Part shown: positions 32,800 through 47,621 of the stretch, one piece after another
How the letters are laid out: each line of letters begins with the position of its first letter
How positions within the stretch are numbered: the stretch's first letter is position 1
Assembly: GCA_028749115.1 (NCBI GenBank)
Contig: JAQURD010000010.1
Span: 7,596-71,595, forward strand
Length of the DNA: 64,000 bases
Reading direction: 5' to 3'
Origin: Acidobacteriota bacterium
GTDB lineage: Bacteria; Acidobacteriota; Aminicenantia; Aminicenantales; Saccharicenantaceae
Program-made: the position numbers and the translations under genes
Notes under the pieces: generated by a model
Told to the model about the DNA's origin: nothing
Database searches by the model: none
The model's input: only the letters and a program-made list of their open reading frames with translations

Positions 32800-32845
32800 T
32801 TCAAACCTCCTTAAAATATATCCTTAAAATGTAAAATGTCTCTGG

Positions 32846-33913
32846 TTACCGACAGCCAGTAACCTCTTTTTCGATGTCCCTCAATTTGTTGATTAAAAAG
32901 TCATTCTCGGCGGGACTGCCAACAGTTACCCGGACCTTATTTTGAAATTCTGGCAGGTCAAACCAGCGGACAAGAACATCTCGTTCAAGAAGCCTATTAA
33001 AGACTTCACGGGCATTTAAAGTGGAAGATTCGAGGAGAAAAAAATTGGCAGAGGAGGGAAGAGCTTTAAATACCTTAAAGCTCAGGAGCTCCTCGTAAAT
33101 CCTTTTTCTTTCTGCTTTGATTTTTTCAACCAGATCGGTGACTAATTCATTTTCAGCGAGGAGAATTTCGGCCGCAGTCTGTTGAAAAAGTCCAACAGAA
33201 AAAGGCAGCCTGGCTTTTTTCAGCTGATTAACTACCGATGGTGCTCCCAGAAGGTAACCAAGACGGGCTCCGGCCAGGCCAAAAGCTTTGGAAAAGGTGC
33301 GTAGAATTATTAGATTCTCATAGTTTTTAAGTAATGGCTGGCCGGTAATTCCGGAGAATTCAACATAAGCTTCATCCAGAATGACTGGCAAGTCCACTTT
33401 CTGCAAAAGATAGTCAATATCTTCAAGGCCCATCATCGAGCCGGTGGGATTATTAGGAGAAGTGAGAAAAATGAGGCCGGCGGCCTGTGCCTGCTCGATG
33501 ATTTTCTGAAGGTCGAAACTGAAGTCGGGCTTAAGGTTTATTTCTATTATTTCTATATCAAGAATTGTGGCTACTCTTTTATAAATAGAAAAGCCTGGCC
33601 TGACGGTTAAAATCCTGTCTCCCTTGCTGGCGAAGCTGCAGATGATGGTCTGGATTAATTCATTTGAGCCGTTCCCCAGAAGAATGCCCTCTGAAGAGTG
33701 GCCGGCATAATCGGCCAGCCTGGTAAGAAGCTCGGTATTTTCTTCCCGTGGATAGCGGTTCCAGTTAGTCCTGTCTAATTTTTTAAAAATCTTTTCTTTA
33801 ATGGCCGGCGGCCAATCAAAAGGGGATTCATTCTGATTGAGCTTAACGGCGGCGGGCCGGCCTGGAACAGAATATGGTTCAAGTTTCAGGATGCTGTTTT
33901 TGATGTAGCTCAT
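32846..33913 (-). CDS. hisC: histidinol-phosphate aminotransferase
   Basis: Class II aminotransferase; PLP lysine region FSKAFGLAGARLGY. Confidence 0.85.
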   Translation of the reverse strand: MSYIKNSILKLEPYSVPGRPAAVKLNQNESPFDWPPAIKEKIFKKLDRTNWNRYPREENTELLTRLADYAGHSSEGILLGNGSNELIQTIICSFASKGDRILTVRPGFSIYKRVATILDIEIIEINLKPDFSFDLQKIIEQAQAAGLIFLTSPNNPTGSMMGLEDIDYLLQKVDLPVILDEAYVEFSGITGQPLLKNYENLIILRTFSKAFGLAGARLGYLLGAPSVVNQLKKARLPFSVGLFQQTAAEILLAENELVTDLVEKIKAERKRIYEELLSFKVFKALPSSANFFLLESSTLNAREVFNRLLERDVLVRWFDLPEFQNKVRVTVGSPAENDFLINKLRDIEKEVTGCR

Positions 33914-34779
33914 ATGATCACCTTTTTAATTTCATATTCGAGAATATCTGTGGCTCCCATTTTTTTGAGGAGAGGAATCAATTTTGTCGCCTCTTTTTTG
34001 CGGACAGCAACCTTGACGGCATAGCCTTTTTCGTCATAGAGAAGGGAAACGGTTGGAGCTCTCATGCAGGGTAAGACAGGAACAATTTCCTCCAGTTTAT
34101 CTTTGGGAAGATTCATCTCCAGCATGACCCGTTCCCGGGCATTAAGAACAGATTCAAAAAGCATGTTAAGCTCCCCGATTTTTTCTTTTTTCCAGGTGTC
34201 CTGAAGCGACACCGGATTGGCAATAAAGCGGGTCGAAGAGGAAAGAATTCTATCTATTATCTTGAGCCCGTTTTCTTTAAGAGTTTTGCCGGTAGAGGTA
34301 TTATCAATAATCAGATCAGCATCCTGAGGCGGGAAAGCTTCAGTCGCACCATAGGTTCTGATGAAGACATAGTCAAAAGTTTCCTTCTCTAAATATTTTC
34401 TCGAAATGTTTTCATATTCGGAAGCGACGATGAGGCGCCTGGTTCTTAGCTGTTGTTTGGTAATGGCCGTTTGAGCCGCCGAGACAATTTCCACCGGGTC
34501 AAAACCGGTGTCCAGGATTTCTTCGACGCGGCTGCCCGTTTCTACTATCCAGTCATAGCCGGTAAAACCAGCGTCATGAGAGCCTATCTCCACCAGTTGA
34601 GCAATATTCTGCGGTTTCATCAACTTGGCTTCAATTTGCGGGTCGCCTGTGCGAGGATAATAAGCACGGTCATCTACTTCGAGAAAGAGGCCAGCTTCAA
34701 GAAGAAGATTGGCCACGGCCGGGAAAATCTTACCCTTGGGTATTAATAGTTTTAATTTTTGATTAACCCTATCTGCCAA
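33910..34779 (-). CDS. hisG: ATP phosphoribosyltransferase, long form; probable TTG start at 34779
   Basis: LKLLIPKGK... HisG N-terminus. SD AGGAGG lies 5 nt upstream of TTG 34779. The track's GTG 34854 would add a non-conserved 25-aa extension. Confidence 0.8.
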   Translation of the reverse strand: MADRVNQKLKLLIPKGKIFPAVANLLLEAGLFLEVDDRAYYPRTGDPQIEAKLMKPQNIAQLVEIGSHDAGFTGYDWIVETGSRVEEILDTGFDPVEIVSAAQTAITKQQLRTRRLIVASEYENISRKYLEKETFDYVFIRTYGATEAFPPQDADLIIDNTSTGKTLKENGLKIIDRILSSSTRFIANPVSLQDTWKKEKIGELNMLFESVLNARERVMLEMNLPKDKLEEIVPVLPCMRAPTVSLLYDEKGYAVKVAVRKKEATKLIPLLKKMGATDILEYEIKKVII

Positions 34780-35589
34780 CTTAACCTCCTTTTTCGTCTC
34801 CTGATAAGGACAAAAAGACAGAAAGACAGGAATATTTAAATCCGGATTTTCCACTCATCGAATTCCAGGGCTGAAATTAAGGTGAGGCCGGACAAAAACG
34901 AGCGGCAGAATTATTCACTCATCCTTAAATCGTCCAGGAAAGAGATGAGGGAAAAAGGAAGGTTAGGTTCAATGCAGACAGGTATTGGTGAGACAATACT
35001 TGATGTAATATTTATTTTTGGTCTGCATAGCAGGATGATATTAGCAGCCTTTGATAGTGCTGTCAAGCTTTCGACGGCTCTTTGTTATTTACAGTTGAAA
35101 AGTGAACTGTTAATGGAGCATTCCATCTATAGGAGTAATAAATGGAAAGGACACACGAGCATGTTGGCCCAGAAATCTCTTTTGCCTTAGTGAAAGAAGA
35201 ACTGTCAATTTTTACCGGCGTATAGAGTTCTACAACCATCAAATTCCTCTCCTGAAGTCCCCATCGTGAGCAAGTGGATATCCATTTAGTCTCTGACCTT
35301 AAATGTGGCTTACTTGAACTTCTGCCTCTGGTGGAATAACCAGTTCATTAACCCTGTTACCTGACCTTATCAGACTTTCCGAGAGTCCACTTTTCAACTA
35401 TTGCTAACAATCCTGTACATACTATTGACAAGCTTGATAGAATAAATTATAAGAAAATCGGAACATGAGGGGAAAAGCAAAGAAATGCAGTTATCAGAGA
35501 GGCCAAAGGAAACTGCAAACACAGAGCCTTAATTTGTTTGGTAGTATTAAAATTCTATATAGAAATAACAAAGATTAAAGGGGGGTAAA

Positions 35590-36723
35590 ATGAAAAAATT
35601 TGTGTTGAGACTCTTCTTGGTTGAGTCGGCTGTTATTTTTTTGATTTTTTCTTCAGTTTTGCTAAAAGCTGATGATATAAAGATCAGGATCGAAAACGGC
35701 ATAGAGGTTATTTATAACCCAGAAAAGCCCGTTCCTCCCAAGGGCTCAGCGGCCAAGATTGTACTTAGACAGGAATTCTCAATTGGAGTGGGAAGGTTTG
35801 ATGAGGATAGGTTTGGAGAGTTGACCTCTATGGATGTAGATAGTGATGGAAACATATATATTCTGGACGGCAAGGAGAAAAGGATAAAGGTCTTTGACAG
35901 TGCCGGGAAGATTATAAATAAATTTGGGAAGGAAGGCCAGGGGCCAGGTGAGCTGAACTTACCTGTGTCTCTTCAAATAACTCCTGCCAGAGAAATAGTC
36001 ATTGGTGATGCCTCAAACCAGAAATTGATGTTTTTTTCTCTTGAGGGGAAGTTCTTGAGAGAAATGTCTACGGCTACAAAGGCTCGGGGTCTGGTTCTCC
36101 CTTTATTTGATTCTCAGGGAAATATCATTGGACAGCAGATTGTGCAAGCTGAGGGAAAGATTATCCGTGAAGTCAGAAAATATGACCACGAGTTGAATTC
36201 GCTCTTTACCATGGCTTCGGTGGATATTACAGGTGTTATACAGGGGAAAATCGATCCTTTCCGCATGGTATTTTCTTATCAGTTTGGAAAGGATAATATC
36301 ATCTATTGCAGTGACTTGGATAAATATGAAATTGAGATCTTCAGTCCAGAAGGGAAACTGATCAAAAGAATATTGAAAGACTATGTTCCCGTTAAACTAA
36401 GGGAAAAAGATAAAGAAGAATTTTTTGGCCGAATGCCGGAAATAGACCCTCAAGCTAAAGGGAGAATAAAGTTTTCAGAATATTTTCCTGCTTATCAGAA
36501 TTTTACCATGGACGAGCAGTGGAGGTTATTTGTCAGGACATTCGAGAAAGGAAAAAACAAAGGAGAGTACTACCTGGATGTGTTCGATGAAGAAGGAAAG
36601 TACATAGCGAAATTCTCCTTCAAAGGAGAGCCCCGGGCCTGGAGAGGAAACAAACTATATGCTATGGAGGAAGATGAGAGCGGATTTCAAACATTAAAGA
36701 TCTACAGTGTCTGCTGGGAATGA
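35590..36723 (+). CDS. secreted NHL-repeat / 6-bladed beta-propeller-like protein
   Basis: Signal peptide; repeated ...DxDGNIYIxD... blades. Confidence 0.55.
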   Translation: MKKFVLRLFLVESAVIFLIFSSVLLKADDIKIRIENGIEVIYNPEKPVPPKGSAAKIVLRQEFSIGVGRFDEDRFGELTSMDVDSDGNIYILDGKEKRIKVFDSAGKIINKFGKEGQGPGELNLPVSLQITPAREIVIGDASNQKLMFFSLEGKFLREMSTATKARGLVLPLFDSQGNIIGQQIVQAEGKIIREVRKYDHELNSLFTMASVDITGVIQGKIDPFRMVFSYQFGKDNIIYCSDLDKYEIEIFSPEGKLIKRILKDYVPVKLREKDKEEFFGRMPEIDPQAKGRIKFSEYFPAYQNFTMDEQWRLFVRTFEKGKNKGEYYLDVFDEEGKYIAKFSFKGEPRAWRGNKLYAMEEDESGFQTLKIYSVCWE

Positions 36724-36964
36724 TGGCTATGTCTTGGAATCTATTCATGCTGATTGTTATTCTTTAGATTGAGACGGCAAGGTGCATCCTTCTATTCTGG
36801 GTCATGGGTTATTGAGGGTATCTAATTAGCTAAGTAAGAAAGGGATACTAGTTTCAGGGGGGAGGAGTATGCTCAATTCGGCAGAGGCGTAATCTGGAAA
36901 CAGTTAAGAAGAGGTTGAAGGTACTAAAGGAGAAAGCAGCGAAAGGAGGCCTAGTCCATATACT

Positions 36965-37495
36965 GAGAGGCAGCTTCAGTCCTTAGAGAATTTGAGAGGG
37001 AGCGAGAGGAAAGTCTGGAAGAGATTGAGACTTACCATCCTGGGTATCTAATAGCCCAGGACACTTACTTTGTGGACTAGATATTAAGAGTGCGTGGCGA
37101 ATTTATCAGCAGACTGTTCTTGATACTTACTCCAGTGTAGCTTTCGCTAAGGTTTACACAGCTAAGGTGCCATTGACGGCGGCTGATCTGTTGAATGACC
37201 GCGTTCTTTTGTTTTTTAGAGATCAGGATTTGACGGTGCTGTGCGTCCTGACTGACAGAGAGACAGAATACTGCGGGGTAGCAGATAAACATCCTTTTGA
37301 AAGAGTTTTATAAAGTTGTCTTTCACTAGAAGATCTATACTATGCTGGATGAGTTACAGAAGGACCTTGACGCCAGCTTGAAGATATATAATAATCAGCG
37401 CACGCATCAAGGGAAACGGTGCCAGAGTCGGACACCGATGGAAACGTTTATTGCTGGAATAGAGCTCGATAGACAAATAATTTAGCCCGGGAATT
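36965..37495 (+). pseudogene. degraded DDE (rve-core) transposase remnant, IS481-like
   Basis: Recognisable ...IETYHPGYLIAQDTYFVD then a frameshift, ...RIYQQTVLDTYSSVAFAKVYTAKVPLTAADLLNDRV...LTDRETEYCG then a deletion of the DDE core, then ...KIYTMLDELQKDLDASLKIYNNQRTHQGKRCQSRTPMETF with an internal TAG. Multiple frames and stops show it is non-functional. Confidence 0.6.
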
Positions 37496-37628
37496 TAATG
37501 GAGGCCCCGACACTCGTCAACTTTAGTGTTGTTTGAACTAATTTTAAGACTCAAGATACTATGATGTATTCTACTCAGACTAAAAAAATTATAAACTTAA
37601 TCTATTAGCACAAGAAGGAGAAAAAGCT

Positions 37629-38660
37629 ATGAACAAAATATTTCCAATAAATGTTAATCTCGTATTTCAGCCTCTTAAGGTTATGTTTACAACATTTAAG
37701 ATAGTTTTTACTTGGTTATTGTGGCAATTGATGTGTATGTTTTGTTTTTTTTTCATACTGGTGTCATATAAGACATCTCTTTTGATGGCAAGCATATTAG
37801 CGTTTATTTTAACTCTGATTGTTTTAATTAAGATAGCAATTCACGAATACGGACATCTAGCCGTTGCGATTAGTGAAAATAAAGGATTGGTTTCATTAAA
37901 CCTCAGAAGAGGAGGGCCTTTAGGTTTCACTGTTTGCTATTCATATTGTCCACCCTTAAATCTTTCCAGCCGGGCGGCATTCTATATGAGCGGTCCGGCT
38001 CTTTCTCTTATTTTTGATCCGGTACTATTTTGCTTGGGAGCGCTTCTTTTAAGCGAGACTATGCTTAGGCCAGGATTGTTGACGTGGAGCAATAAGTTAA
38101 TTATATTAGGTATAATTTTTGTTGTGCCGATTTTTCAAATCATACTGTCTTATGTGATATCAAAGCCATCACAGGAGGGAGGAGACTACAGCAGGTTAAA
38201 AATGCTTAATCTTATGGGTTTACCGCCAGTAAAATTTAACGATTTAATCTCGGTTTTAATAAGCATTATCAATTATACGAGAGGGAAAGGAACAATCAAT
38301 ATAAAAAAGTTGTTAGAATTGAAACCTGTTTTTAATTTTCCTTATAATATCGAAGATCAAAAAACCATAAAAATTAATTTAGATAGTACAAATCATTTTT
38401 ATATTAGGGGAAAGGAAGCGGAAGTTGGAAGGAAAATAACTGGTACACATTCTATAAGCGAAATAATAAAAGACAGCGGTAGTGACAATGAAATATTAGA
38501 AATAATAATAAAATTTTATATGTGTTATATTGTGTCAATACCGCCTATATATTCAAAAATATCACCAGAGGATTTAATTCCATTCAAGATTGACTTTATT
38601 GAATTCTATAAGAAAATGATAGCAAAATATTTTAGTTCGAGTTTCTATTTTTCTGGATGA
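37629..38660 (+). CDS. polytopic membrane protein with TM-embedded HExxH, a putative intramembrane zinc metalloprotease (S2P/M50-like)
   Basis: LIKIAIHEYGHLAVAIS inside a hydrophobic helix; many TM segments; AT-rich codon usage like the rest of the island. Confidence 0.4.
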   Translation: MNKIFPINVNLVFQPLKVMFTTFKIVFTWLLWQLMCMFCFFFILVSYKTSLLMASILAFILTLIVLIKIAIHEYGHLAVAISENKGLVSLNLRRGGPLGFTVCYSYCPPLNLSSRAAFYMSGPALSLIFDPVLFCLGALLLSETMLRPGLLTWSNKLIILGIIFVVPIFQIILSYVISKPSQEGGDYSRLKMLNLMGLPPVKFNDLISVLISIINYTRGKGTINIKKLLELKPVFNFPYNIEDQKTIKINLDSTNHFYIRGKEAEVGRKITGTHSISEIIKDSGSDNEILEIIIKFYMCYIVSIPPIYSKISPEDLIPFKIDFIEFYKKMIAKYFSSSFYFSG

Positions 38661-39006
38661 CAATAAAGTTGCTAGCTGTTAAGCTTTCTGTTAATTTCCG
38701 GAGCCAAATTATTTTGTCTGGCCAAGTACTGAGATACCCTATGAAAACATTTATGTTGTTTTCTAACGAGAATTTGCTGAGCTGGTGTATAAGAAATAGT
38801 CAGCAGACTTTCCACCTTTACAGAGTGATAATAATTATCGGATGGCCTTTTTATATTGTTTGGGGCTAAAGAGATGGTTTATGCGAAGTTTGATTTTTAA
38901 GAAAGGAAAAACCGTATTAAAACAAAAAAAAAGAGATATCAATTCAATTGACAATAAACCGTAGGAATATTAATTTTATTATCTTAATGCAAAGAAGGAG
39001 GCTGAT

Positions 39007-39201
39007 ATGGACGAAAGAGAAGAGCTAATATATGAATCACCTTTAGCAATTACAGCAAATGATGTGTTTCTATTTTCAGTCGAAGCGGGAAGTGAGGCTG
39101 CGGCAGTGGCCGTTGTGGCTGTCGTGGCGGTAGTGGCTGTTGTTGCTGTTGTTGCCGTTGTGGCTGTTGTTGCCACTGTTGCAGTACCGGCGGCATACTA
39201 G
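39007..39201 (+). CDS. candidate RiPP precursor peptide: 33-aa leader plus (V-V-A)n hydrophobic repeat core
   Basis: MDEREELIYESPLAITANDVFLFSVEAGSEAAA | VAVVAVVAVVAVVAVVAVVAVVATVAVPAAY. SD AAGGAGG 5 nt upstream. Immediately upstream of an RRE-rSAM gene on the same strand; hairpin terminator just downstream. Confidence 0.7.
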   Translation: MDEREELIYESPLAITANDVFLFSVEAGSEAAAVAVVAVVAVVAVVAVVAVVAVVATVAVPAAY

Positions 39202-39216
39202 AAAAAATCTTTTTTT

Positions 39217-39240
39217 CTGCACTCAGCAGAGTGCAGTTTA
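39217..39240 (+). terminator. putative intrinsic terminator/attenuator hairpin after the precursor gene
   Basis: CTGCACTC-agca-GAGTGCAG 8-bp stem followed by TTTA. The T-tail is weak, suggesting a partial terminator. Confidence 0.4.
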
Positions 39241-39364
39241 GCTGGGCTAAGATAAGCCTCGCCTTTTTAGGAAATATGTCGGAGATCATGTGCATTAGAA
39301 CGTGTCTGGAATTTTTAGAGTAAATAGAAGGAAGGGCAGTTTCTTTTTGAATAAGAAGTAAAAA

Positions 39365-41107
39365 ATGTTTGATGACACGAAATTGGGTTTGGGCAATAAT
39401 GTCAGTGGCAATTTTTTGGCATTAACTCCAGTTCCCTTACGAGAAGCATCTTGGTATTTTGATGAAAAAACAGGTCGTGTTGTTATTTTAGTTTACCCTA
39501 AAAGGCTAATATTAGGAAAAGCTCAGTCTATGATTTGGAAACATGTTGATGGATTCAATACTGTTAATGATATAGCCAGTATTTTACATCATGATATGGA
39601 TATTAATGTTATCAGGGCAGCATTTAAAGAATTTGAATACAAAAACATAGCAAGAATGAAAGATATTAAAAATTCTTTTTGGGGTGATATCTCCGATAAT
39701 AATAAAAAGATAGACATAATTGAAGATCCAATGGGTTCTGATACTGGTGCTGATTTGATTTTGATAGTGCCTCCACAGTCTATAAGGTGTTTTTCGCTTG
39801 GAGCGATCAGCCTAGCACCTCCATTAGGATTGATGTATATCGCTTCAAATTTAATTTTAAATGGATATAAGGTTAAGATATTAGATCTAAGTGACAAGAC
39901 AAAACTTTCAAAAGATAGTTTTCATGATTATCTTGACAAAAACAGGCCAAAAGCTGTTGGAATTACTTGTTGGTCTGAATTTATGGAAAATGCTTTAGAA
40001 TTAGCCAAAACAACCAAAGAATATAATCCTGAAATAGCTGTCATCTTAGGCGGTCCACATGTTACCTTCATGGCTGACGAATGTTTTAAAGAAAATGATT
40101 ATGTTGACGTAGTTTGCCGGCATGAAGGTGAATACAGTATGATAGAGTTAATGGATTTCTATAAATGGAAAAAGGGTTCTTTGCAAGATATTTTAGGCAT
40201 AACATATCGTGAGCAGAAAACAGGTTCTGTCGTACGTAATCGAAGTAGAGCCTTTATAAAAGAATTAGATGAATTACCATTTCCAGCCCGCCATCTGATA
40301 GATTTCTCAAAGTATACAAAGCCTATGTTTATGATCACTAGCAGAGGCTGCACAGGTAAATGTAAATTTTGTGCAGGGACTACAATGGGGAGACGATATA
40401 GATTTAGACATCCTGATAAGGTTGCACAAGAAATAGAAGAGATAATTAGAGATTATAAACCAGAGGAGATTTATATTGTAGATGATGCCTTTACTATTAT
40501 TCCTGATCGTGCAAAAGAGATCTGCGCTTACTTAAAAAACTCGGATATAAGATGGTTCTGTGAATCACGAGTTGATGCTGTAAACGAAGAATTACTAAGG
40601 ATATTTTATGAATCTGGCTGTAGATATATTCAATTCGGAATAGAATCTGGCTCTCAACAGATTTTAGATGCTATCAAAAAGGAAACGACTTTAACAGAGG
40701 TCGAAAATGCCGTTAAATGTGCAACTGAAGCTGGCATCAAAGTAGCTTGTTCTTTCATAATAGGACACTTCGATGATACAGATGAAACAATTCAAGAAAC
40801 AATTGCACTAATGAAATATTTAAAAGACAAATATAATGTGGCTTTATTTTGTGGCCCGAATGTCATATTTCCTGGCACGTATCAGTATGCACATAGAGAG
40901 TCTTTAGGATTAGACTTTCAACTAAAATCTTGGAGTGCCAATATAATGGGGCATACAGTTACGCCAACTAAGTACCTTTCATATGAAAAACTTAGACGTT
41001 ATGTATTTGAAGCAATTGAATTATGTATGCCGACAGTCATTGATCTTGCTAAAGAGAAGAATCGTGAATTATATGGTAGTGAATGGCCAGATCGATTGGG
41101 TAGGTAA
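39365..41107 (+). CDS. B12-binding-domain radical SAM enzyme with N-terminal PqqD-like RiPP recognition element (RRE)
   Basis: N-terminal ~100 aa PqqD-like (IWKHVDGFNTVNDIASIL); cobalamin-binding-type Rossmann domain; radical SAM CTGKCKFC (CxxxCxxC) within ITSRGCTGKCKFCAG. Confidence 0.85.
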   Translation: MFDDTKLGLGNNVSGNFLALTPVPLREASWYFDEKTGRVVILVYPKRLILGKAQSMIWKHVDGFNTVNDIASILHHDMDINVIRAAFKEFEYKNIARMKDIKNSFWGDISDNNKKIDIIEDPMGSDTGADLILIVPPQSIRCFSLGAISLAPPLGLMYIASNLILNGYKVKILDLSDKTKLSKDSFHDYLDKNRPKAVGITCWSEFMENALELAKTTKEYNPEIAVILGGPHVTFMADECFKENDYVDVVCRHEGEYSMIELMDFYKWKKGSLQDILGITYREQKTGSVVRNRSRAFIKELDELPFPARHLIDFSKYTKPMFMITSRGCTGKCKFCAGTTMGRRYRFRHPDKVAQEIEEIIRDYKPEEIYIVDDAFTIIPDRAKEICAYLKNSDIRWFCESRVDAVNEELLRIFYESGCRYIQFGIESGSQQILDAIKKETTLTEVENAVKCATEAGIKVACSFIIGHFDDTDETIQETIALMKYLKDKYNVALFCGPNVIFPGTYQYAHRESLGLDFQLKSWSANIMGHTVTPTKYLSYEKLRRYVFEAIELCMPTVIDLAKEKNRELYGSEWPDRLGR

Positions 41108-41113
41108 GACGGT

Positions 41114-42035
41114 TTATGCTAATCCCCTGAGGATGGATAAGGCTCCTGGCAAGAGTGTCAGACGAAGATGTATTTTATAAATTTCAAAAAATGACAGAGA
41201 GAAGGAATAGTTTATAGACGGGAGCGTTTCCCATGTGCTGGGCAGCGCGATAAGACTCAAAATGACCTGATTAGGTTGGTCTACGTTCACCCCCTCCAGT
41301 AGATAAGGGTAAAGCTTATGACCAGGAGAGGAAAAACCTATCCTCCTATGGGGATAGATGGCCTGAAGTCCTAAACGTCTGAAAAGCTTCCTCACCCGCT
41401 TGGCATTTACCCCATAGCCCTGAGCCCTTAACCAGGCGGTCATCCTCCTTACCCCATAAAACGGTGTTCTGGTAAACTCTTCATCTATGAGCCTCATCAA
41501 CTCAAGATTACAGTCATCATTGACCACTGAGCTGTAATAGTATGAGGACCTCAGAAGATTTAATAGCTCACACTGCCGGACCACCGCTATCTCCTCGTTA
41601 TTCCTCTCCACCAACTGCCTCTTCTCCTCTACTGAAGCTGCCGAAATTTTTTTTTAAGCCAATCGTTCTCTACCTTGAGCTGCCCTATCTGCTGGTAAAG
41701 CTCCGCCTCCTTCTGGTCTCGTTCCTCATCTGTTCTCTTCCTCCGGTCCGAAAACAACTCAGGTAATGCATTCAGCAGATGTTCCTTCCATTGACTAACC
41801 TGGTTAGGATGAACCCCATACTCACTGGCTACCTGGGCAACAGTCTTCTCCCCTTTGACCGCCTCCAGCGCCACCCTGGCCTTAAAGGCCGCTTCATACT
41901 GTCGTCTTTTCATACTGGCCATTTTACCATACCTCCTCCAGAGTTATGGCAGGTCATTTCCCACCTTATTGCCCTGTCCAGTTTTTGGGGAGAACCTCAC
42001 CTAGTAGATCCTTGACAACTGTTCATTTGCTCATA
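41114..42035 (-). mobile_element. truncated IS3-family element (orfA intact, orfB 3'-truncated)
   Basis: orfA 41629..41922 (HTH, MASMKRRQYEAAFKARVALEAV...). A10 slippery run at ~41646-41656 typical of an IS3 -1 frameshift. orfB' 41114..41614 (...RRMTAWLRAQGYGVNAKRVRKLFRRLGL...) lacks the DDE integrase core. Putative left end TGAGCAAATGAAC (revcomp of 42021-42033). Confidence 0.65.
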
Positions 42036-42100
42036 CCTGCTTCTTCTAATGGCAAATTAGTGCTCTCTAATGAGACCAAAAGGTGCAGTCAAATATCAAC

Positions 42101-44224
42101 CTATAGAACTTTTTCACCTCTCTCTAATTTAAAGAAAACAAACCATACAAAAATTGCTACTATTGCCAATATTAGATCTAACGAGACAAGCCTCTTTAGC
42201 CATACTAAGGTTTCAGTTGAGTCAATAAGTTGTGCCAGAATACCCCTCTGAGCAATGCAGGCTGGGTTTAGCTTGAACAATATAGATGTATCAGGAATAT
42301 TTACCGCTCCTGAAATAGCCACAGGTAAGATTAGAAATAACTCTAGAACTGCTAATGTTATGCTTACTCCGGATGTTATGGAAGGGAAAATAATAATCGA
42401 TAGACAGCTAATAGATAATCCTAAAAGAACACATATTAATAAAAGTTTGCAGATCAGAAATATACTTATTTCAAAGCCACTAATAAAACTTATACCTATC
42501 ATCAGGGAGGCAACTACTATAGAGGCAAAAATAGCTGTTAACATGATACTTGTTAGAAAATCGAAATGGCTTAATGGAGTCAATCGTAAGGCATCTAATG
42601 TTTCCATCTGTTTCTCTTTAGCCATAACAGAAGATAGGCCCATACTGATAACCACTATTTGTATGACAATAAAAATCGTGAATAGAAAAAAACTTAAATT
42701 CATTCCTTTTATTTTCTTAAATATTAATGAGTATTTTCCTTTTTCTCCAGCTTCTTCTAAGATTATTCTTCTTATTATATTAGCTACAATAAAAGACTGT
42801 GGTTGCCTGGCGTCGTCCATAATTATTTCGATAAAGGGACTATTATCCCGGGAAGATATTAAGATTGCACTTAAGACTAGTTTTTTCTGAATCAGGGCTC
42901 TGGCCTCATTAACACTTTTCACCTGATGATAAGAATAAGGAGTTTTTTTAGTTAAGTTTATTAACACCTGGTTTGATAACTCATCATTAGTAGAATATAA
43001 TGCAACTTTGCTTCTCTCAAGATAAGGTAACTGCATATTTATTAATAAAACTATAGTTATAAATAGGAAAAAGAGCACAAGCACTAATATTATCTTAAAA
43101 CTTAGTAATTCCTTTATATTCTTCGAAACCATAGTTAGAACTCTATTTCTATATTTGAAATTTAACCTAACTGTTGGTATCCGGTGAAATTTTGGAATGA
43201 TCCTTTTGCTTGTAGCTGAGAAGGCACCTAAAATAAATTTAAATAGAAAGGCAGTGACTATTGTTCCAAAAAAGAAAAAAAACACAATATTCCAGCTCAG
43301 GCTTGATACATTTAAGAGTATTTGCTGAGATGCAGAAGATGGAAGGATGTAATTATATTTTGCAATCAATTCTAAACGATCAACAAACACGGAAGGTGTA
43401 ATAAAAATAATTGCTGCTATCGATGAATAAGTATATACAGAAATTGCAGTTCTGGCCGACATAGCAATTTCTAATCCTAGGTAAGCATAAAATATACTTA
43501 AGATTAAGAAAATCACTAAAGCTTTTAATTTATAGCTGAATGGTTCTTGTAAAAAGGATAATGATATAGAGATAACAGGTAATATTATTAATGCATAAAA
43601 TATCAATTTAGAGATTATTATTTGGATTTTCCTAGCACCACTCATGTTTATAGCATCCAGTAGTCCCTTATCTTTCTCGTAGATAATATTGTGAACAAAC
43701 ATATTCAGGCCTAAAAGTGGCAGCATGACCTGCAATAAGATTAGAAAAATACGTGTTGGGATTCTTACGCTCCTTAGGTTACTGATATAAATATTTATCG
43801 CTTTGCTTTTATCTTTAGAAATAGCCTCTGATATCAATGCCGATGATAGTTCTTGAACTATAGGATTATTATCACTGATAATTATTTGAAGGGCTGGTAA
43901 TCCGGATTCTCCTTTAATAAAATCTATTGCTGCTATTACTTGCCCTTTCATTATTAATTGTTCTGCTTTTGAAAAATCGCTTATTTCTATTATTTTAAAG
44001 GCGGGATATCGTTCTATTTCCTCAGCTATGGTCTTATGGACAGCTTGTTTAGATTGAACAATGGCTAGTGGGAATTTGTTTCCCTTAACATTGCCAAAAT
44101 AACTAAAAATTAAAAGGATAGATAAAGGAGACAATATTATAATAAAATTAAACTTATTTTTTAAAAATAATTTAATTTCTTTTTGTATTAAGAACAAAAT
44201 ATTCTTCATTATGTCTTTCACCAA
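42101..44224 (-). CDS. ABC-2 type transporter permease (large, two-module)
   Basis: Two blocks of ~6 TM helices separated by extracytoplasmic segments; the 53-nt overlap with the upstream ATPase gene suggests translational coupling. Confidence 0.7.
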   Translation of the reverse strand: MVKDIMKNILFLIQKEIKLFLKNKFNFIIILSPLSILLIFSYFGNVKGNKFPLAIVQSKQAVHKTIAEEIERYPAFKIIEISDFSKAEQLIMKGQVIAAIDFIKGESGLPALQIIISDNNPIVQELSSALISEAISKDKSKAINIYISNLRSVRIPTRIFLILLQVMLPLLGLNMFVHNIIYEKDKGLLDAINMSGARKIQIIISKLIFYALIILPVISISLSFLQEPFSYKLKALVIFLILSIFYAYLGLEIAMSARTAISVYTYSSIAAIIFITPSVFVDRLELIAKYNYILPSSASQQILLNVSSLSWNIVFFFFFGTIVTAFLFKFILGAFSATSKRIIPKFHRIPTVRLNFKYRNRVLTMVSKNIKELLSFKIILVLVLFFLFITIVLLINMQLPYLERSKVALYSTNDELSNQVLINLTKKTPYSYHQVKSVNEARALIQKKLVLSAILISSRDNSPFIEIIMDDARQPQSFIVANIIRRIILEEAGEKGKYSLIFKKIKGMNLSFFLFTIFIVIQIVVISMGLSSVMAKEKQMETLDALRLTPLSHFDFLTSIMLTAIFASIVVASLMIGISFISGFEISIFLICKLLLICVLLGLSISCLSIIIFPSITSGVSITLAVLELFLILPVAISGAVNIPDTSILFKLNPACIAQRGILAQLIDSTETLVWLKRLVSLDLILAIVAIFVWFVFFKLERGEKVL

Positions 44225-45128
44225 TTATCTTCATAAAAGCTTCTTGTAGAGAAGGTCTGACTTTTTCAATTGTTTTAATCTCGACGCCACTTTCCTTTAT
44301 GATGTCATTTAAAGACCCAATAAAAGAGACAATATCTGTCGAGACTTTATTAAAGGTTAAGACATCGCAGCTCTCATTTTCTAAAACACTAAATGAGCTA
44401 AACTGTTTAGGATTGATCCTGGCACTAAAACATACTCTATATAAGTTTTCAAGTGAAGCTTCAGAACATAATTGTTCAGTAGATCCACTAGCGGTTATTT
44501 TCCCATGATGAAGGATGGCTATCCTATTACACAATATTTCTGCCTCGTCAAGATAATGGGTGGTAATAAATATAGTTTTGCCCCGGTTATTCAAATTTGA
44601 TATCAATCTTCTTACAAATTGATCAGTTTGAGGATCTAGGCCAACCGTCGGTTCATCGAGGAAAAGAACTTCAGGATCGTGGATCAACGCTCTTCCTATA
44701 AGAAGTTTTTGTTTCATTCCTTTTGAATATTTATATACGTTTTCGTTTGCTCTGTCTTCCAATTTCATCAGTTTAAGCATATTTTCAGCAGATTGTTTGG
44801 GCTGAGGCAATCCATATAGCTGCGCAAACAAATATAGATTATAAAAACCTGAAAGGTTTTCATAAAGATTCTGATTTTCGAAAACTACACCGATAATTCT
44901 TTTTATACGTTTCTGGTATTTTTTTAGGTCAAGATTTCTAATCAGAATTTGCCCACTACTTGGCTCAATTAATCCACATAGCATTTTTAATATTGTGCTC
45001 TTACCTGCTCCATTTGGACCAAGCAACCCAAAAATTTCTCCTTCTTTCACACTTATACTTATATTGTCTACTGCTATCAATTCCCCATATTTCTTAGTGA
45101 TAGCCTTCATTTCAATTGCAGATTGCAT
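44172..45128 (-). CDS. ABC transporter ATP-binding protein
   Basis: Walker A GPNGAGKST, signature LSGGMKQK-like (YSKGMKQKLLIGRAL), Walker B LFLDEPT, H-loop. Confidence 0.9.
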   Translation of the reverse strand: MQSAIEMKAITKKYGELIAVDNISISVKEGEIFGLLGPNGAGKSTILKMLCGLIEPSSGQILIRNLDLKKYQKRIKRIIGVVFENQNLYENLSGFYNLYLFAQLYGLPQPKQSAENMLKLMKLEDRANENVYKYSKGMKQKLLIGRALIHDPEVLFLDEPTVGLDPQTDQFVRRLISNLNNRGKTIFITTHYLDEAEILCNRIAILHHGKITASGSTEQLCSEASLENLYRVCFSARINPKQFSSFSVLENESCDVLTFNKVSTDIVSFIGSLNDIIKESGVEIKTIEKVRPSLQEAFMKIIGERHNEEYFVLNTKRN

Positions 45129-45145
45129 TGATTATCCTCGCCTGC

Positions 45146-46492
45146 CTACTTACCTAGAGTCCACATTACTTCTTCTATAACATTCTTGTAACAGTCACAA
45201 CAAGGGTTATTTTCTGTCAATGAACCAAACTCCAGAGCCAAAACTCTACATCCGCCGCCGCAATAATATCTATACTCACAAGCTGAACAGTTCTTAAATT
45301 TATCAACTGTAACCTCTTGATAAATCTCAGAAGCTTTTTTATTTATTTCTGAAAAGTCTTCAACGTAAGTATTTCCAATTTTATATTTATGATCGTGTAA
45401 TAAAGGACATGGATATACTGAACCGTCTGGACTTATACTCAATGTATTTATGCCTAATCCGCAGTTTAGGTATTTATGAGTATTAAATGGAGAATACACC
45501 ATATCGCCAGCAGTCTTAAGCGTAATTTGAACTTTCTTTTTCTTTAGAAGAAATGAATAGAATAGTTCCCTGCTTTGTTGAAAAACGGAAATGAAATTAC
45601 ATCTTTTTGAAAAATCATTTGTTTCAGTTTCAATAGCCGGTATCAAGCACTTTATTTCTAAAGTACATTTACTATCATTTATAGGTTCAAGTATATTTGA
45701 GAGCTTAGATATATTTTGCTCATTTACCAGGGCGGAAATCAATATGCTTTTTAATCCAGCCTTCTTGAGCATTTTGACATTTTCGATAGCCAAATCCACT
45801 GATGAAGAATTTTCTATTTCAATATTGATTTGAATACTTTTAAAACAAGATACTAATATGTTGGCCATATCAATCCCAATAGGAGCTGAGTCTAAAATAA
45901 GATTTAGAGGATTGGTGGCTATTTTCATACAGTCAATTAAATGTTCTTTTTGTAATGTTTCTAAATCGGAGGATATTAATAACTGGGTTAATTGATAATT
46001 ATTTAACTGGTGAAATAGCCTAGCTAACTCGTCAGATGTCATAATATGTTCTGATTCTTCCGAATCGTTGCATGCATAGCCATATTGACATTGACGATAT
46101 GATAATTTTTTTAAATGGATCCATACAAATTTCAAATCAACAATACCTGGCATCGGCGCTGTTTTATCGCCAATTATTCGAGCGTCTTTTGCCTTTTCTA
46201 AAAATGTTCTTACATCTTCTTCAATCAATCGTGCAGGAACATCCCAGCACTTAGCTATTTTATCAACTATTTCTGTAAATAGAGGATTTTCAAAATAAGA
46301 TTTGATTATGTCCATTCCAACACGGTTAGATCTCATCCAACCCATATGCTTCCCGTTAACTATTAGGTACTCATTTCCTTTCTTTTTAATATTGAGGTCA
46401 GAAGATAAATTAAAATTAAGTTTTTCAATTTTAGGTTTACCTTTTAATTGGTTAGGACTCTCCATATGCTTATTCTCCTTCTCTTGAATCAA
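45146..46492 (-). CDS. RRE-containing SPASM-domain radical-SAM-like peptide maturase (non-canonical cluster motif)
   Basis: N-terminal PqqD-like RRE (YLIVNGKHMGWMRSNRVGMDIIKSYFENPLF...). C-terminal SPASM Cys array (CGLGINTLSISPDGSVYPC ... CSACEYRYYCGGGC ... CC). Where CxxxCxxC is expected, the sequence reads SYRQCQYGYACNDS (Cx5C only). Confidence 0.7.
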   Translation of the reverse strand: MIQEKENKHMESPNQLKGKPKIEKLNFNLSSDLNIKKKGNEYLIVNGKHMGWMRSNRVGMDIIKSYFENPLFTEIVDKIAKCWDVPARLIEEDVRTFLEKAKDARIIGDKTAPMPGIVDLKFVWIHLKKLSYRQCQYGYACNDSEESEHIMTSDELARLFHQLNNYQLTQLLISSDLETLQKEHLIDCMKIATNPLNLILDSAPIGIDMANILVSCFKSIQINIEIENSSSVDLAIENVKMLKKAGLKSILISALVNEQNISKLSNILEPINDSKCTLEIKCLIPAIETETNDFSKRCNFISVFQQSRELFYSFLLKKKKVQITLKTAGDMVYSPFNTHKYLNCGLGINTLSISPDGSVYPCPLLHDHKYKIGNTYVEDFSEINKKASEIYQEVTVDKFKNCSACEYRYYCGGGCRVLALEFGSLTENNPCCDCYKNVIEEVMWTLGK

Positions 46493-47342
46493 AACACGTT
46501 TCCCGTTATAAAATAGGGAATTTAACTACACAAAGTTTTTATTCAACATTTACATGAAGAGCAATGGTATCGATTGCTCGATATTTCATCATCATTTGGA
46601 AAAATTCCTACGATTAGCATTATTCTGCATACTTTTCAAATTTTTTTCTGCTTGAAGAAGCATGAAACTAGATAGAGGATATATTGCCTTACAGCTCAGC
46701 ACCTGGCCTTCTATCTTAAATGCCGTTATAGCCTCCTGCCTAAAATACATAACTATCCTTGCTACCGCCTCTACTTTGTTTGTCCCAACATCCATTTTTT
46801 ATAGTTCATGCTTAGCCATTATGCTAAGGACCCTCAGCTTGGCGGCCTCTATAGCTATGAATGCAAAGCCTATATATTCCTCTTATACCTTGACTTACAA
46901 CAAAGCCACACCATTGGCTATAATTTCTTCTAATAGTGATTTATATATTAGTTCTTCTTTTTTGCCCGTAGTTACCTCCTTATTTTAGCTGCAAGAGTCA
47001 AGCTAATATTCATGAGACTTAATGTCAATCAAATTGATATCTTTTTTTTTTCGTTTTGGTATGGTTTTTTTCGTTTCTTATAAATTCAGATTCGGCATAA
47101 ATCCATGTCTTTAGCGCAAAATAATAATAAAAAGACTATTTTCCCCCCACCCTTACTATTCGGAAGATTCCACTGCAAATTAGCTAGCCATTCTGAGGGG
47201 AAGGCAGCAGCTTTTAGCGCAGTGATTGGAATAAGTGGCCAGGATGGGTTAGAAGCATAGCGGTGTGTTGGGTAATCTCAGATGGAAGGGGTATTTTAAA
47301 CCTCTGAGGAATAGAAATTATACTGAATAAGGAGGCGTCAGG

Positions 47343-47621
47343 ATGAAGCTAAGGAAATGGAGTTCAGAGGAGAAGATGGCGATTGTGCTGGAGGGGTTAA
47401 AGGGGAAAAAATCGGTGGCTGAGATATGTCGGGAACATCAGATAAGCCAGGCATTGTATTATCGGTGGCGGGACAGGTTTTTGGAGGCTGGTCAGAAGGG
47501 GTTAAGCAATGGGGGCAGTGAGGATGAGACGAAGGCGCTTCAAACCCAGATAGAGAAACTGGAGAAGATAATAGGGCGACAGACGATTGCCATCGAGGCT
47601 TTAAAAAAACTCAAGAGTTAA
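47343..47621 (+). CDS. IS3-family transposase OrfA (second, unrelated copy); downstream orfB reduced to a ~100-nt fragment
   Basis: MKLRKWSSEEKMAIVLEGLKGKKSVAEICREHQISQALYYRWRDRF... (HTH_Tnp_1-like). 47640-47710 encodes an OrfB N-terminal fragment (...LREEGMSLKSACEALKISLSW) and then decays. Confidence 0.7.
   Translation: MKLRKWSSEEKMAIVLEGLKGKKSVAEICREHQISQALYYRWRDRFLEAGQKGLSNGGSEDETKALQTQIEKLEKIIGRQTIAIEALKKLKS

What the first reader, a model, noticed from the sequence alone, without database searches (positions are those of the whole stretch)
39365..41107. RRE-fused cobalamin-type radical SAM enzyme adjacent to the precursor
An N-terminal PqqD-like recognition element, B12-binding domain and CxxxCxxC radical SAM core in one protein is the architecture of class B rSAM peptide tailoring enzymes. 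With a Val/Ala-only core, the likely chemistry is iterative C-methylation at unactivated carbons.
Basis: partly seen in the sequence, partly recalled or inferred. Interest (0 to 1): 0.8.

Follow-up and report, generated by a model that had tools for sequence, protein, structure and literature searches.

The report
RRE-fused B12 radical SAM peptide enzyme
This gene encodes an intact peptide-modifying enzyme, made of a leader-peptide docking domain fused to a vitamin-B12-type radical SAM catalyst, that sits beside a peptide gene with an (Ala-Val-Val)n core; it belongs to a widespread peptide natural-product family for which I found no published description, and it most likely adds methyl groups to the valines.

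Summary
Window 39365-41107 (+) is one 580-aa ORF. It contains a PqqD-type RRE (about residues 18-100), a B12-binding Rossmann domain (Pfam 2e-21) and a radical SAM core (Pfam 2e-26, C329-x3-C333-x2-C336).

The 64-aa precursor gene (39007-39201) is real:
- It has an AAGGAGG ribosome-binding site.
- All variation among its VVA repeats falls at third codon positions.
- Its leader carries Y-E-S-P-L-A, the [Y/W]xxPxΦ motif bound by lasso-peptide RREs.

Fifteen independent loci pair an RRE (fused or discrete) and a B12-rSAM with a short peptide that has a [Y/F]xxP leader and an all-aliphatic core. I found no description of this family. The window's enzyme groups with discrete-RRE relatives, so its fusion looks independent.

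Methylation of valine is inferred from precedent (PoyC, MpcB, ApyD), not shown. The enzyme falls below every curated family cut-off. The neighbouring RRE-SPASM protein has lost its radical SAM motifs, and IS fragments flank the low-GC island.

Verdict: a new variant of a known kind and a good genome-mining lead.

The parts
37629..38660 (+). Polytopic membrane protein with an HExxH motif (HEYGH). It is a candidate leader peptidase. Its C-terminal ~125 aa give a weak RRE-like match.
   Evidence: Pfam Peptidase_M50 matches only residues 62-84, E 0.003, below the cut-off. The C-terminus scores 13 bits against the PqqD-only HMM. No homologue was found among 5.8 billion proteins. The role is inferred.
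38995..39001 (+). Shine-Dalgarno sequence AAGGAGG, 5 nt before the precursor ATG.
   Evidence: Read directly from the sequence.
39007..39201 (+). Precursor peptide gene, 64 aa: MDEREELIYESPLAITANDVFLFSVEAGSEAAAVAVV(AVV)6ATVAVPAAY.
   Evidence: ORF. A 9-nt tandem repeat is present. The seven VVA units differ only at third codon positions of this frame. The same peptide type lies upstream of RRE/B12-rSAM pairs in 15 loci.
39031..39048 (+). Leader motif Y9-E-S-P12-L-A14, which fits [Y/W]xxPx[L/V/I/F/A].
   Evidence: [Y/F]xxP is conserved at the N-terminus of the family's precursors. The motif is bound by lasso and LPP RREs (PMC13381572). Binding here is inferred.
39097..39198 (+). Predicted core, residues 31-64: 17 Val and 14 Ala, plus Thr, Pro and Tyr. 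The valines are the probable modification sites.
   Evidence: Codon table. The leader/core boundary is inferred, not mapped.
39217..39259 (+). Two stem-loops after the precursor stop codon: CTGCACTC-AGCA-GAGTGCAG followed by TTT, and GGGCT..AGCCT followed by a T-rich tail. They are possible partial terminators between the precursor and enzyme genes.
   Evidence: Sequence and terminator-like scan. Function is inferred.
39365..41107 (+). RRE-B12-binding-radical SAM enzyme, 580 aa.
39416..39664 (+). PqqD-like RRE domain, residues ~18-100 (four β-strands, three helices, then one β-strand). A low-confidence linker follows, up to about residue 130.
39755..40147 (+). Rossmann B12-binding domain, residues ~131-261, including the conserved GGPH(V)T and R-x-EGE motifs.
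   Evidence: Pfam PF02310 at 2.1e-21. Invariant columns G229, G230, H232, E254, G255, E256. pLDDT 92-98.
40331..40810 (+). Radical SAM core, residues 323-482. The cluster cysteines C329, C333 and C336 are encoded at 40349-40372.
   Evidence: Pfam PF04055 at 2.2e-26. Invariant cysteines.
41114..41922 (-). Truncated IS3-family transposase remnant (OrfA HTH plus the OrfB HTH_21 domain only). It separates the enzyme gene from the transporter genes.
   Evidence: Pfam HTH_Tnp_1 and HTH_21, with no catalytic domain.
42101..44224 (-). ABC-2 type permease, 707 aa. It is the probable exporter or immunity component.
   Evidence: Pfam ABC2_membrane_3 at 3.8e-18.
44172..45128 (-). ABC transporter ATPase, DrrA-like.
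   Evidence: Pfam ABC_tran at 6.6e-34; NCBIfam drrA at 281 bits.
45146..46492 (-). RRE plus degenerate radical SAM barrel plus SPASM protein. The radical SAM cluster motif and the GGE motif are lost. Seven SPASM cysteines are kept.
   Evidence: Pfam PqqD at 7.5e-6 and SPASM at 3.7e-8, with no Radical_SAM hit. Alignment with intact relatives.

Best explanation
The gene encodes a class B (cobalamin-type) radical SAM enzyme with its own N-terminal PqqD-like RiPP recognition element.

Proposed mechanism:
1. The RRE binds the leader of the adjacent 64-aa precursor through the lasso-type motif Y9-E-S-P12-L-A14. This docking holds the all-aliphatic (Ala-Val-Val)n core at the active site.
2. The [4Fe-4S] cluster, ligated by C329/C333/C336, cleaves SAM to a 5'-deoxyadenosyl radical.
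3. That radical abstracts a hydrogen from an unactivated side-chain carbon.
4. Methylcobalamin, held by the Rossmann domain, delivers a methyl group to that carbon.
5. The cycle repeats along the core. The most likely product is tert-leucine, formed by β-methylation of up to 17 valines.
6. The HExxH membrane protein upstream would remove the leader, and the DrrAB-like ABC-2 transporter would export the very hydrophobic product.

What is shown:
- the domain architecture
- the RRE fold
- the intact catalytic motifs
- the coding status of the precursor
- the family-wide link between the RRE/B12-rSAM pair and peptides with a [Y/F]xxP leader and an aliphatic core

What is inferred:
- cobalamin use
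- methyl transfer
- the target atom
- iteration along the core
- the peptidase and exporter roles
For: Architecture:
- Pfam B12-binding at 2e-21 and Radical_SAM at 2e-26.
- The CxxxCxxC motif and 56 conserved columns are retained.
- The AF2 model has pLDDT 82.7. Its best PDB matches are TsrM, AprD4, MgmA, OxsB, CysS and TokK.

RRE:
- The A2 profile gives 2268 hits. Of the 116 short top hits, 115 are Pfam PqqD.
- The query scores 37.9 bits against a PqqD-only HMM built without it.
- The profile hits TbiB1 at 1.8e-15 and PqqD at 1.8e-12 in the PDB.

Precursor:
- Shine-Dalgarno sequence AAGGAGG.
- Repeat variation confined to third codon positions.
- Leader motif shared with upstream peptides in 15 loci. 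It matches the motif that RREs of lasso and LPP systems bind (PMC13381572).

Chemistry by precedent:
- Six of the ten best NCBIfam matches are methyltransferases: ApyD, PhpK, HpnR, Sden_1168, the PoyB/C-type family and MgmA.
- The B12-rSAM MpcB β-methylates Val, Ile, Pro and Thr in clavusporins, and polytheonamides and bottromycins carry B12-rSAM-installed methyl groups (bioRxiv 10.1101/2024.01.23.576971).
- ApyD is an RRE-containing B12-rSAM that makes β-methyl-Tyr (PMC10635010).
- The RRE/B12-rSAM pair is the only tailoring module present in all of the family loci I fetched. Only 10 of those loci have an intact SPASM partner within the fetched flanks, and the window's copy is degenerate. The family-defining modification must therefore fall on aliphatic residues.
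Against: - No experiment or diagnostic sequence feature separates methyl transfer from other B12-rSAM chemistries.
- The enzyme is below the curated cut-off of every NCBIfam family. The best scores are HpnJ at 189 against 578 and ApyD at 178 against 750.
- The nearest relatives are only 44% identical.
- The best PDB sequence hit is AprD4. From memory, it has a B12-like domain but does not use cobalamin.
- Pfam's own PqqD model does not reach significance on the N-terminus.
- The high-confidence RRE model depends on an alignment dominated by PqqD proteins.
- The cluster sits in an IS-flanked island, and its SPASM partner is catalytically dead. The pathway may no longer be complete.
Confidence: 0.6

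Rival explanations
1. The architecture and substrate are the same, but the chemistry is different. The enzyme would use the 5'-deoxyadenosyl radical, with or without cobalamin, for a non-methylating change of aliphatic residues. Candidates are Cα epimerisation, desaturation, or a C-C link such as cyclopropane formation.
For: - B12-domain radical SAM enzymes also catalyse ring contraction, cyclisation, C-S and C-P bond formation, and dehydration (PMC10635010 discussion; PMC13331322).
- The top NCBIfam matches include HpnJ and BchE.
- AprD4 is the best PDB sequence hit.
- Valine-to-cyclopropylglycine chemistry exists in RiPPs with repeated Val/Ile motifs (PMC10878394).
Against: - The known cyclopropyl synthases are RS-SPASM enzymes with a GYW motif, not B12-domain enzymes (PMC10878394).
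- From memory, the known peptide epimerases (PoyD, YydG) lack a B12 domain.
- Every B12-domain radical SAM enzyme acting on a peptide or protein that I checked in the literature is a C-methyltransferase.
Confidence: 0.2
2. The cluster is a decaying, horizontally acquired remnant. The enzyme ORF is still intact, but the pathway no longer yields the original product.
For: - The island has 32-34% GC against about 45% in the flanks.
- IS3 fragments lie at 41114-41922 and 47343-47621. A short transposase-like ORF fragment at 37342-37485 was judged by eye from its translation; Pfam gave no hit for it.
- The RRE-SPASM partner has lost CxxxCxxC and GGE, while relatives keep them.
- The enzyme is a singleton in 5.8 billion proteins.
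Against: - The enzyme keeps all 56 conserved positions.
- The precursor repeats show purely synonymous variation.
- The SPASM ORF is still full-length, with its RRE and seven SPASM cysteines.
- At least 12 family loci function without any SPASM partner in the fetched flanks.
Confidence: 0.15
3. The short ORF is a chance product of a GTT/GCT microsatellite, and the enzyme acts on a non-peptide substrate, as its RRE-less archaeal homologues may do.
For: - (AVV)4-encoding repeats are common in metagenomes with no rSAM nearby.
- The Bathyarchaeial homologues, at 40-44% identity, have no RRE or peptide gene in their flanks.
Against: - Strong Shine-Dalgarno sequence at the right spacing.
- Variation only at third codon positions.
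- A lasso-type leader motif shared with 14 other loci.
- An RRE fused to the enzyme.
- The enzyme groups with the peptide-associated L005 and L008 enzymes, not with the archaeal clade.
Confidence: 0.05

Closest known systems
ApyD (aminopyruvatide pathway, Burkholderia thailandensis), an RRE-containing B12-radical SAM enzyme that makes β-methyltyrosine
   Same: It is a class B radical SAM enzyme carrying an RRE, and it acts on a ribosomal peptide at an unactivated sp3 carbon (PMC10635010). It is the second-best NCBIfam match at 178.5 bits.
   Different: - The score is far below the family cut-off of 750.
- The match starts at ApyD model position 17 with the B12 domain. The ApyD model therefore has no N-terminal RRE in front of its B12 domain, and the domain order differs (inference).
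- ApyD makes one methylation on a Tyr, in a cluster with a P450 and an MNIO enzyme. Here the core is all-aliphatic and repetitive, and those partners are absent.
PoyB/PoyC-type RiPP C-methyltransferases of polytheonamide (proteusin) biosynthesis, TIGR03975
   Same: These are B12-radical SAM enzymes that act repeatedly on Val-rich hydrophobic cores. From memory, PoyC converts Val to tert-Leu. The predicted product type, a heavily C-methylated aliphatic peptide, is the same.
   Different: - The score is 123.5 bits against a cut-off of 281.85.
- The precursor has no Nif11/NHLP-type leader.
- The enzyme here has a fused PqqD-type RRE and a lasso-type YxxP leader motif.
- No PoyD-type epimerase is present.
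MpcB/MpcC of clavusporin biosynthesis (Streptomyces clavuligerus)
   Same: MpcB is a B12-radical SAM enzyme that β-methylates Val, Ile, Pro and Thr many times in a short hydrophobic ribosomal peptide. The cluster also has a transporter and a peptidase (bioRxiv 10.1101/2024.01.23.576971).
   Different: - MpcB has a CX7CX2C motif and needs a DUF5825 partner.
- The window enzyme has CX3CX2C, an RRE, and no DUF5825 hit among the neighbours I scanned.
Discrete lasso-peptide RREs (TbiB1, TfuB1) and the LPP-family RRE LppB
   Different: Here the RRE hands the peptide to a B12-radical SAM enzyme, and in this window it is fused to that enzyme. No lasso cyclase or B2 protease is present. The region between helices α2 and α3 is shorter than in typical PqqD proteins.

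Membership tests
PqqD-like RiPP recognition element (PF05402; RRE winged-helix fold) | Passes the Pfam PF05402 gathering threshold | tested here: not met
   N-terminal 128 aa: E 0.2, 12.5 bits against a cut-off of 23.4, covering residues 55-87 only. The full-length protein gives no PqqD hit.
PqqD-like RiPP recognition element (PF05402; RRE winged-helix fold) | Profile-level homology to bona fide PqqD/RRE proteins | tested here: met
- Four fused relatives aligned over the region carry a precomputed PF05402 hit.
PqqD-like RiPP recognition element (PF05402; RRE winged-helix fold) | β-sheet plus three-helix winged-helix fold that superposes on solved RREs | tested here: met
   - The model has pLDDT above 90 for residues 20-100.
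- The Foldseek top list is dominated by RREs.
- Caveat: the model rests on a PqqD-rich alignment.
PqqD-like RiPP recognition element (PF05402; RRE winged-helix fold) | A cognate leader with a recognition motif is encoded nearby | tested here: met
   Y9-E-S-P-L-A14 in the adjacent precursor. [Y/F]xxP is present in the upstream peptides of 15 loci. The motif is defined in PMC13381572.
PqqD-like RiPP recognition element (PF05402; RRE winged-helix fold) | Physically binds the leader peptide | not testable with these tools
   This needs a binding assay or a co-folding prediction.
Class B (cobalamin-dependent) radical SAM enzymes | Rossmann B12-binding domain N-terminal to the radical SAM core | tested here: met
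   PF02310 at 76.4 bits against a cut-off of 32.1, residues 151-261. pLDDT 92-98.
Class B (cobalamin-dependent) radical SAM enzymes | Radical SAM core with the CxxxCxxC cluster motif | tested here: met
   PF04055 at 93.4 bits. C329, C333 and C336 are invariant in 50 sequences.
Class B (cobalamin-dependent) radical SAM enzymes | Overall fold like the cobalamin-bound structures | tested here: met
   Foldseek gives TsrM at 9e-23, OxsB at 7e-21, CysS at 8e-21 and TokK at 5e-18. AprD4, a top hit at 2e-22, is from memory cobalamin-independent.
Class B (cobalamin-dependent) radical SAM enzymes | Actually binds and uses cobalamin | not testable with these tools
   These enzymes bind the cofactor base-off and His-off with no conserved ligand residue (PMC13331322). 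The query has no His-loop after strand 1, which is consistent with this mode, but that does not prove binding.
PoyB/PoyC-type RiPP C-methyltransferase (TIGR03975) | Score at or above the curated cut-off of 281.85 bits | tested here: not met
   123.5 bits.
ApyD (NF050148) | Score at or above the curated cut-off of 750 bits | tested here: not met
   178.5 bits. The match covers only model positions 17-366 of 645.
MpcB/clavusporin system | CX7CX2C cluster motif and a DUF5825 partner protein | tested here: not met
   The query has CX3CX2C. No DUF5825 hit was found in the eight cluster proteins scanned. The features are defined in bioRxiv 10.1101/2024.01.23.576971.
Proteusin (polytheonamide-type) RiPPs | Nif11- or NHLP-type leader on the precursor | tested here: not met
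   The precursor matches no Pfam or NCBIfam model, even at E up to 10.
Radical SAM cyclopropyl synthases (TvgB/TigE) | RS-SPASM enzyme with a strictly conserved GYW motif | tested here: not met
   - The target has no SPASM domain.
- The neighbouring SPASM protein has no GYW in its sequence and has lost CxxxCxxC.
- The feature is defined in PMC10878394.

The most novel reading that the evidence does not exclude
The window holds the most extreme member of a RiPP class I could not find described. In this class a lasso-type YxxP leader is read by a PqqD-like RRE that delivers an all-aliphatic core to a B12-radical SAM enzyme. Here that enzyme would alkylate an (Ala-Val-Val)8 repeat exhaustively. 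The product would be a peptide with up to 17 tert-leucines, which could act as a membrane-active agent or a surfactant.
Probability: 0.3. Interest if true: 0.75.

Novelty: new variant of a known kind. Interest (0 to 1): 0.55.

Why it matters
- **Chemistry.** C-methylation of unactivated carbons in peptides is rare and synthetically valuable. Only a handful of B12-radical SAM peptide methylases have been characterised.
- **A defined, testable family.** The family has a minimal module of one leader motif, one RRE and one enzyme. It is spread across many phyla: Acidobacteriota, Zixibacteria, WOR-3, Ignavibacteria, Chloroflexota, Clostridia and others.
- **A convenient substrate.** The window's (AVV)n precursor is a natural repeat substrate. 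It would show directly how many sites one enzyme can process, and which ones.
- **Recognition-module reuse.** The link to the lasso-type YxxP/RRE system suggests that different RiPP classes reuse the same recognition module.
- **Fusion history.** The separate fusion of the RRE in this lineage shows how readily that module becomes attached to an enzyme.

Tried and rejected
- **Word-indexed search, N-terminal alignment.** The search found nothing above threshold. The exhaustive representative search was needed instead.
- **Pfam and NCBIfam on eleven precursor sequences.** No family matched, so no named precursor class applies.
- **Metagenome scan for DNA encoding (AVV)4.** It stopped at its 120-hit limit. 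None of the 120 loci has a B12-rSAM (apart from one marginal 28.7-bit hit, L139), an RRE or a SPASM gene nearby. These are unrelated microsatellites, so no second (AVV)n precursor was found.
- **Cobalamin riboswitch or any other RNA family in the window.** None reached the gathering score.
- **Homologues of the HExxH membrane protein.** Only the protein itself was found, so its peptidase role stays a guess.
- **BLASTP of the query RRE against the discrete RREs of the two closest loci.** L005 gave E 2e-5. L008 gave no alignment, although the HMM detects both.
- **Cyclopropylglycine synthase idea.** I first recalled TvgB as a B12 enzyme. The paper shows it is RS-SPASM with a GYW motif, so I dropped this idea for the target.
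- **Literature searches for this family.** I found precedents but no description of the family. Only open-access papers and bioRxiv were searched.
Full report
**Observation**

Window 39365-41107 (+) is one uninterrupted ORF of 580 aa. Pfam assigns a B12-binding domain to residues 151-261 (E 2.1e-21) and a Radical_SAM domain to residues 323-482 (E 2.2e-26), both well above the curated cut-offs. The cluster motif is C329-x3-C333-x2-C336 (ITSRGCTGKCKFCAG).

In an alignment of 50 homologues the query carries the consensus residue at all 24 invariant and 32 near-invariant columns. These include the GGPH-x-T and R-x-EGE motifs of the Rossmann domain. The protein is identical to an NCBI entry named only 'radical SAM protein' from an Acidobacteriota MAG. 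It is a singleton, and the next relative among 5.8 billion proteins is 44% identical.

**Is the N-terminus an RRE?**

Pfam alone says no. The PqqD model gives E 0.2 over residues 55-87. Four lines of evidence say yes.

- **Fused relatives.** Four proteins align over 92% of the query, and their N-termini carry a precomputed PqqD hit.
- **Profile search.** A profile of the five N-termini, run against 1.84 billion representative proteins, gave 2268 hits at E ≤ 0.001. Most were proteins of 90-130 aa. Of the 116 top hits of at most 145 aa, 115 pass Pfam PqqD.
- **Query left out.** An HMM built from those 116 proteins without the query scores the query N-terminus at 37.9 bits (E 6.5e-14 for one comparison). 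The match covers profile positions 13-79. The same alignment, searched as a profile against PDB sequences, finds TbiB1 (1.8e-15), PqqD (1.8e-12) and TfuB1.

One caveat applies. The confident model depends on a PqqD-rich alignment. The earlier full-length model, with only five sequences over this region, gave a similar order of elements (two strands, then three helices) at low confidence.

**The catalytic part**

The full-length model has mean pLDDT 82.7, with values above 90 through the Rossmann and TIM-barrel domains. It matches TsrM, AprD4, MgmA, OxsB, CysS and TokK at E 1e-17 to 1e-22.

Class B enzymes bind cobalamin base-off and without a histidine ligand. The residue under the cobalt differs from enzyme to enzyme (PMC13331322). 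No sequence test can therefore prove cobalamin binding, and the absence of a His-loop here is as expected. AprD4, which from memory does not use cobalamin, is the best PDB sequence hit. Cofactor use remains an inference.

Against NCBIfam, the enzyme is below every curated cut-off:

| Family | Score (bits) | Cut-off (bits) |
|---|---|---|
| HpnJ | 189 | 578 |
| ApyD | 178.5 | 750 |
| BchE | 171 | 481 |
| PhpK | 150 | 600 |
| PoyB/C-type RiPP C-methyltransferase | 123.5 | 282 |

It is therefore a class B enzyme outside the defined families.

**The precursor**

The 64-aa ORF at 39007-39201 reads MDEREELIYESPLAITANDVFLFSVEAGSEAAAVAVV(AVV)6ATVAVPAAY. An AAGGAGG Shine-Dalgarno sequence lies 5 nt before its ATG.

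The core is encoded by a 9-nt tandem repeat. Among the seven VVA units, every difference falls at a third codon position of this frame, and none at first or second positions. That pattern indicates selection on the protein and rules out the overlapping reverse-strand ORFs. Two stem-loops follow the stop codon (39217-39236, and 39244-39259 with a T-rich tail). They could act as partial terminators, as is common between RiPP precursor and enzyme genes.

**A family**

I fetched loci for the fused relatives, for the closest unfused relatives, and for 79 genome hits. I scanned all ORFs in them with HMMs for the RRE, the B12-rSAM and the SPASM enzyme. The RRE is found in two arrangements:

- Fused to the enzyme: L001-L004, L019, L035, L037 and the window.
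- Encoded as a ~100-aa protein directly upstream: L005, L008, L023, L024, L029, L031, L034, L045, L051, L053, L055, L087.

In 15 independent loci a short same-strand ORF upstream has an N-terminal [Y/F]xxP motif and an aliphatic C-terminal stretch. Examples:

| Locus | Source | Upstream peptide |
|---|---|---|
| L001 | Zixibacteria | MSYKKPAYHQVEDEVTSFEAPILGIIILAIIIVTLTPGEAQ |
| L037 | Clostridium sp. KNHs205 | MEYNKPIYVEVNDGDDNVSTNGIPVVLILAAIIAGGVSGCTKD |
| L019 | WOR-3 | MAYKAPDYTKQELDGEGMEFLAPSMIIVAIAIIAIAGAPCSG |
| L024 | Ignavibacteriaceae | MKYEAPEMNYEV...DPVAIAAVILIAAITVAL |
| L025 | Chloroflexota | ...VYESPTIEIEEV...CVVIGAVITGGAIVIAAVID |
| L008 | metagenome | (L)YKKPEF...LPVVIVGAVIVSAVGQG |

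The L008 peptide starts at a CTG codon behind AGGAGGTG.

The window's Y9-E-S-P-L-A14 fits the [Y/W]xxPx[L/V/I/F/A] motif. Crystal structures show that motif bound in the hydrophobic cleft of lasso and LPP RREs (PMC13381572). None of the precursors matches an NCBIfam model. Seven literature searches found no description of this family. Only open-access papers and bioRxiv could be searched.

**Fusion history**

In a neighbour-joining tree of 93 catalytic domains, the window enzyme groups with L008 and with the two L005 paralogues. All of these have discrete RREs. This group lies apart from the main clade of fused enzymes.

The query RRE aligns with the L005 discrete RRE at E 2e-5. The alignment includes a shared shortening between helices 2 and 3 and a similar SFWGD/SIWGEE tail. 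The fusion in this lineage therefore appears to be an independent event.

**Mechanism**

The RRE/B12-rSAM pair is the only tailoring module common to the family. At least 12 loci have no SPASM partner in the fetched flanks. The cores contain almost nothing except Ala, Val, Ile, Leu and Gly. The defining modification must therefore fall on aliphatic residues.

C-methylation is the best-supported reading, for these reasons:

- Six of the ten best NCBIfam matches are methyltransferases.
- MpcB β-methylates Val, Ile, Pro and Thr many times in clavusporins, and polytheonamides and bottromycins carry methyl groups installed by B12-rSAM enzymes (bioRxiv 10.1101/2024.01.23.576971).
- ApyD is an RRE-containing B12-rSAM that makes β-methyl-Tyr (PMC10635010).

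For the window this predicts repeated conversion of Val to tert-Leu at up to 17 sites. I put this at about 0.6. Other radical chemistry, such as epimerisation, desaturation or C-C linking, gets about 0.2. The known valine cyclopropanases are RS-SPASM enzymes with a GYW motif (PMC10878394), which neither the target nor its neighbour has.

**The rest of the cluster**

- **Upstream, 37629-38660 (+).** A polytopic membrane protein with an HEYGH motif. It gives a weak partial M50 match and a weak RRE-like C-terminus (13 bits). It has no homologue in the database.
- **Downstream, opposite strand.** An ABC-2 permease, a DrrA-like ATPase, and a 448-aa protein with a Pfam-positive PqqD domain and a SPASM domain.
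- **That SPASM protein is degenerate.** Aligned with its intact relatives from L005, L008, L002 and L003, it has SYRQCQYGYAC where they have CNLKCxxCY. It has SSDLETL where they have GGEPL. It keeps seven SPASM cysteines. As a radical SAM enzyme it should be dead. It may survive as a leader-binding scaffold, or it may be decaying.
- **The island.** GC content is 32-34% against about 45% in the flanks. Truncated IS3 fragments interrupt it at 41114-41922 and bracket it at 47343-47621. This fits horizontal acquisition and leaves open that the pathway is incomplete.

**Verdict**

The enzyme is not a member of any characterised family. It is a new variant of a known kind, an RRE-guided class B radical SAM peptide enzyme. 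It belongs to a broad family of aliphatic-core RiPPs with a lasso-type leader for which I found no description. It is a worthwhile target for heterologous expression. It is not a categorical surprise.

Noticed in passing
window 45146-46492 (-): A PqqD-RRE plus SPASM protein whose radical SAM cluster motif (CxxxCxxC replaced by SYRQCQYGYAC) and GGE motif (replaced by SSD) are lost. Seven SPASM cysteines and the full-length ORF are kept. Relatives in L005, L008, L002 and L003 are intact. It may be a pseudo-enzyme, a scaffold, or a gene in decay.
   Followed up: partly
window 37629-38660 (+): A membrane protein with an HEYGH motif and a weakly RRE-like C-terminus. It has no detectable homologue among 5.8 billion proteins. 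It is a possible leader peptidase of a new type.
   Followed up: partly
window 7784-14128 (+): A single 2114-aa ORF that combines DUF748, TamB, POTRA and Omp85 domains. TamB-like and TamA-like parts appear fused in one polypeptide, whereas from memory they are separate proteins in Proteobacteria.
   Followed up: no
window 48645-50258 (+): A 537-aa ORF with two Thy1 (ThyX) stretches, about twice the usual ThyX length (from memory). It may be a tandem-fused thymidylate synthase.
   Followed up: no
window 36700-47700: A low-GC island (32-34% against about 45%). A short transposase-like ORF fragment at 37342-37485 was judged by eye only (no Pfam hit). IS3 remnants lie at 41114-41922 and 47343-47621. 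A histidine-biosynthesis-type operon (identified by eye, from memory, from the ORF translations) lies directly upstream at 28317-34854 (-).
   Followed up: partly
L008 1822-1953 (+): The family-type precursor (L)YKKPEF...LPVVIVGAVIVSAVGQG begins at a CTG codon, 6 nt after AGGAGGTG. It was not called as a gene, so annotation pipelines probably miss such precursors.
   Followed up: partly
L005 3146-3286 (+): The precursor MYIVPTVL...ATITITITIVGPCPVLP has an ITIT-type core that recalls the clavusporin core KPSVGITITVPFR. This locus has two B12-rSAM paralogues, a discrete RRE and an intact RRE-rSAM-SPASM enzyme.
   Followed up: no
L034 3929-4610, L045 4126-4612, L051 3029-3475 (Lachnotalea / Petralouisia): Two or three tandem precursors with an (L/M)xKP leader, a Cys-rich middle (GGE[LM]ACSGNTCSxG[FY]SCxSVDSSGG) and a Gly/Val/Ala tail. 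They sit beside a discrete RRE, a B12-rSAM, a SPASM enzyme and a second B12-rSAM of about 700 aa. This is a more elaborate branch of the same family.
   Followed up: no
L027 4575-9003 and L028 5938-10329 (Bacillota MAG; Ruminiclostridium hungatei): Three tandem B12-rSAM paralogues with no detectable RRE in the fetched flanks.
   Followed up: no
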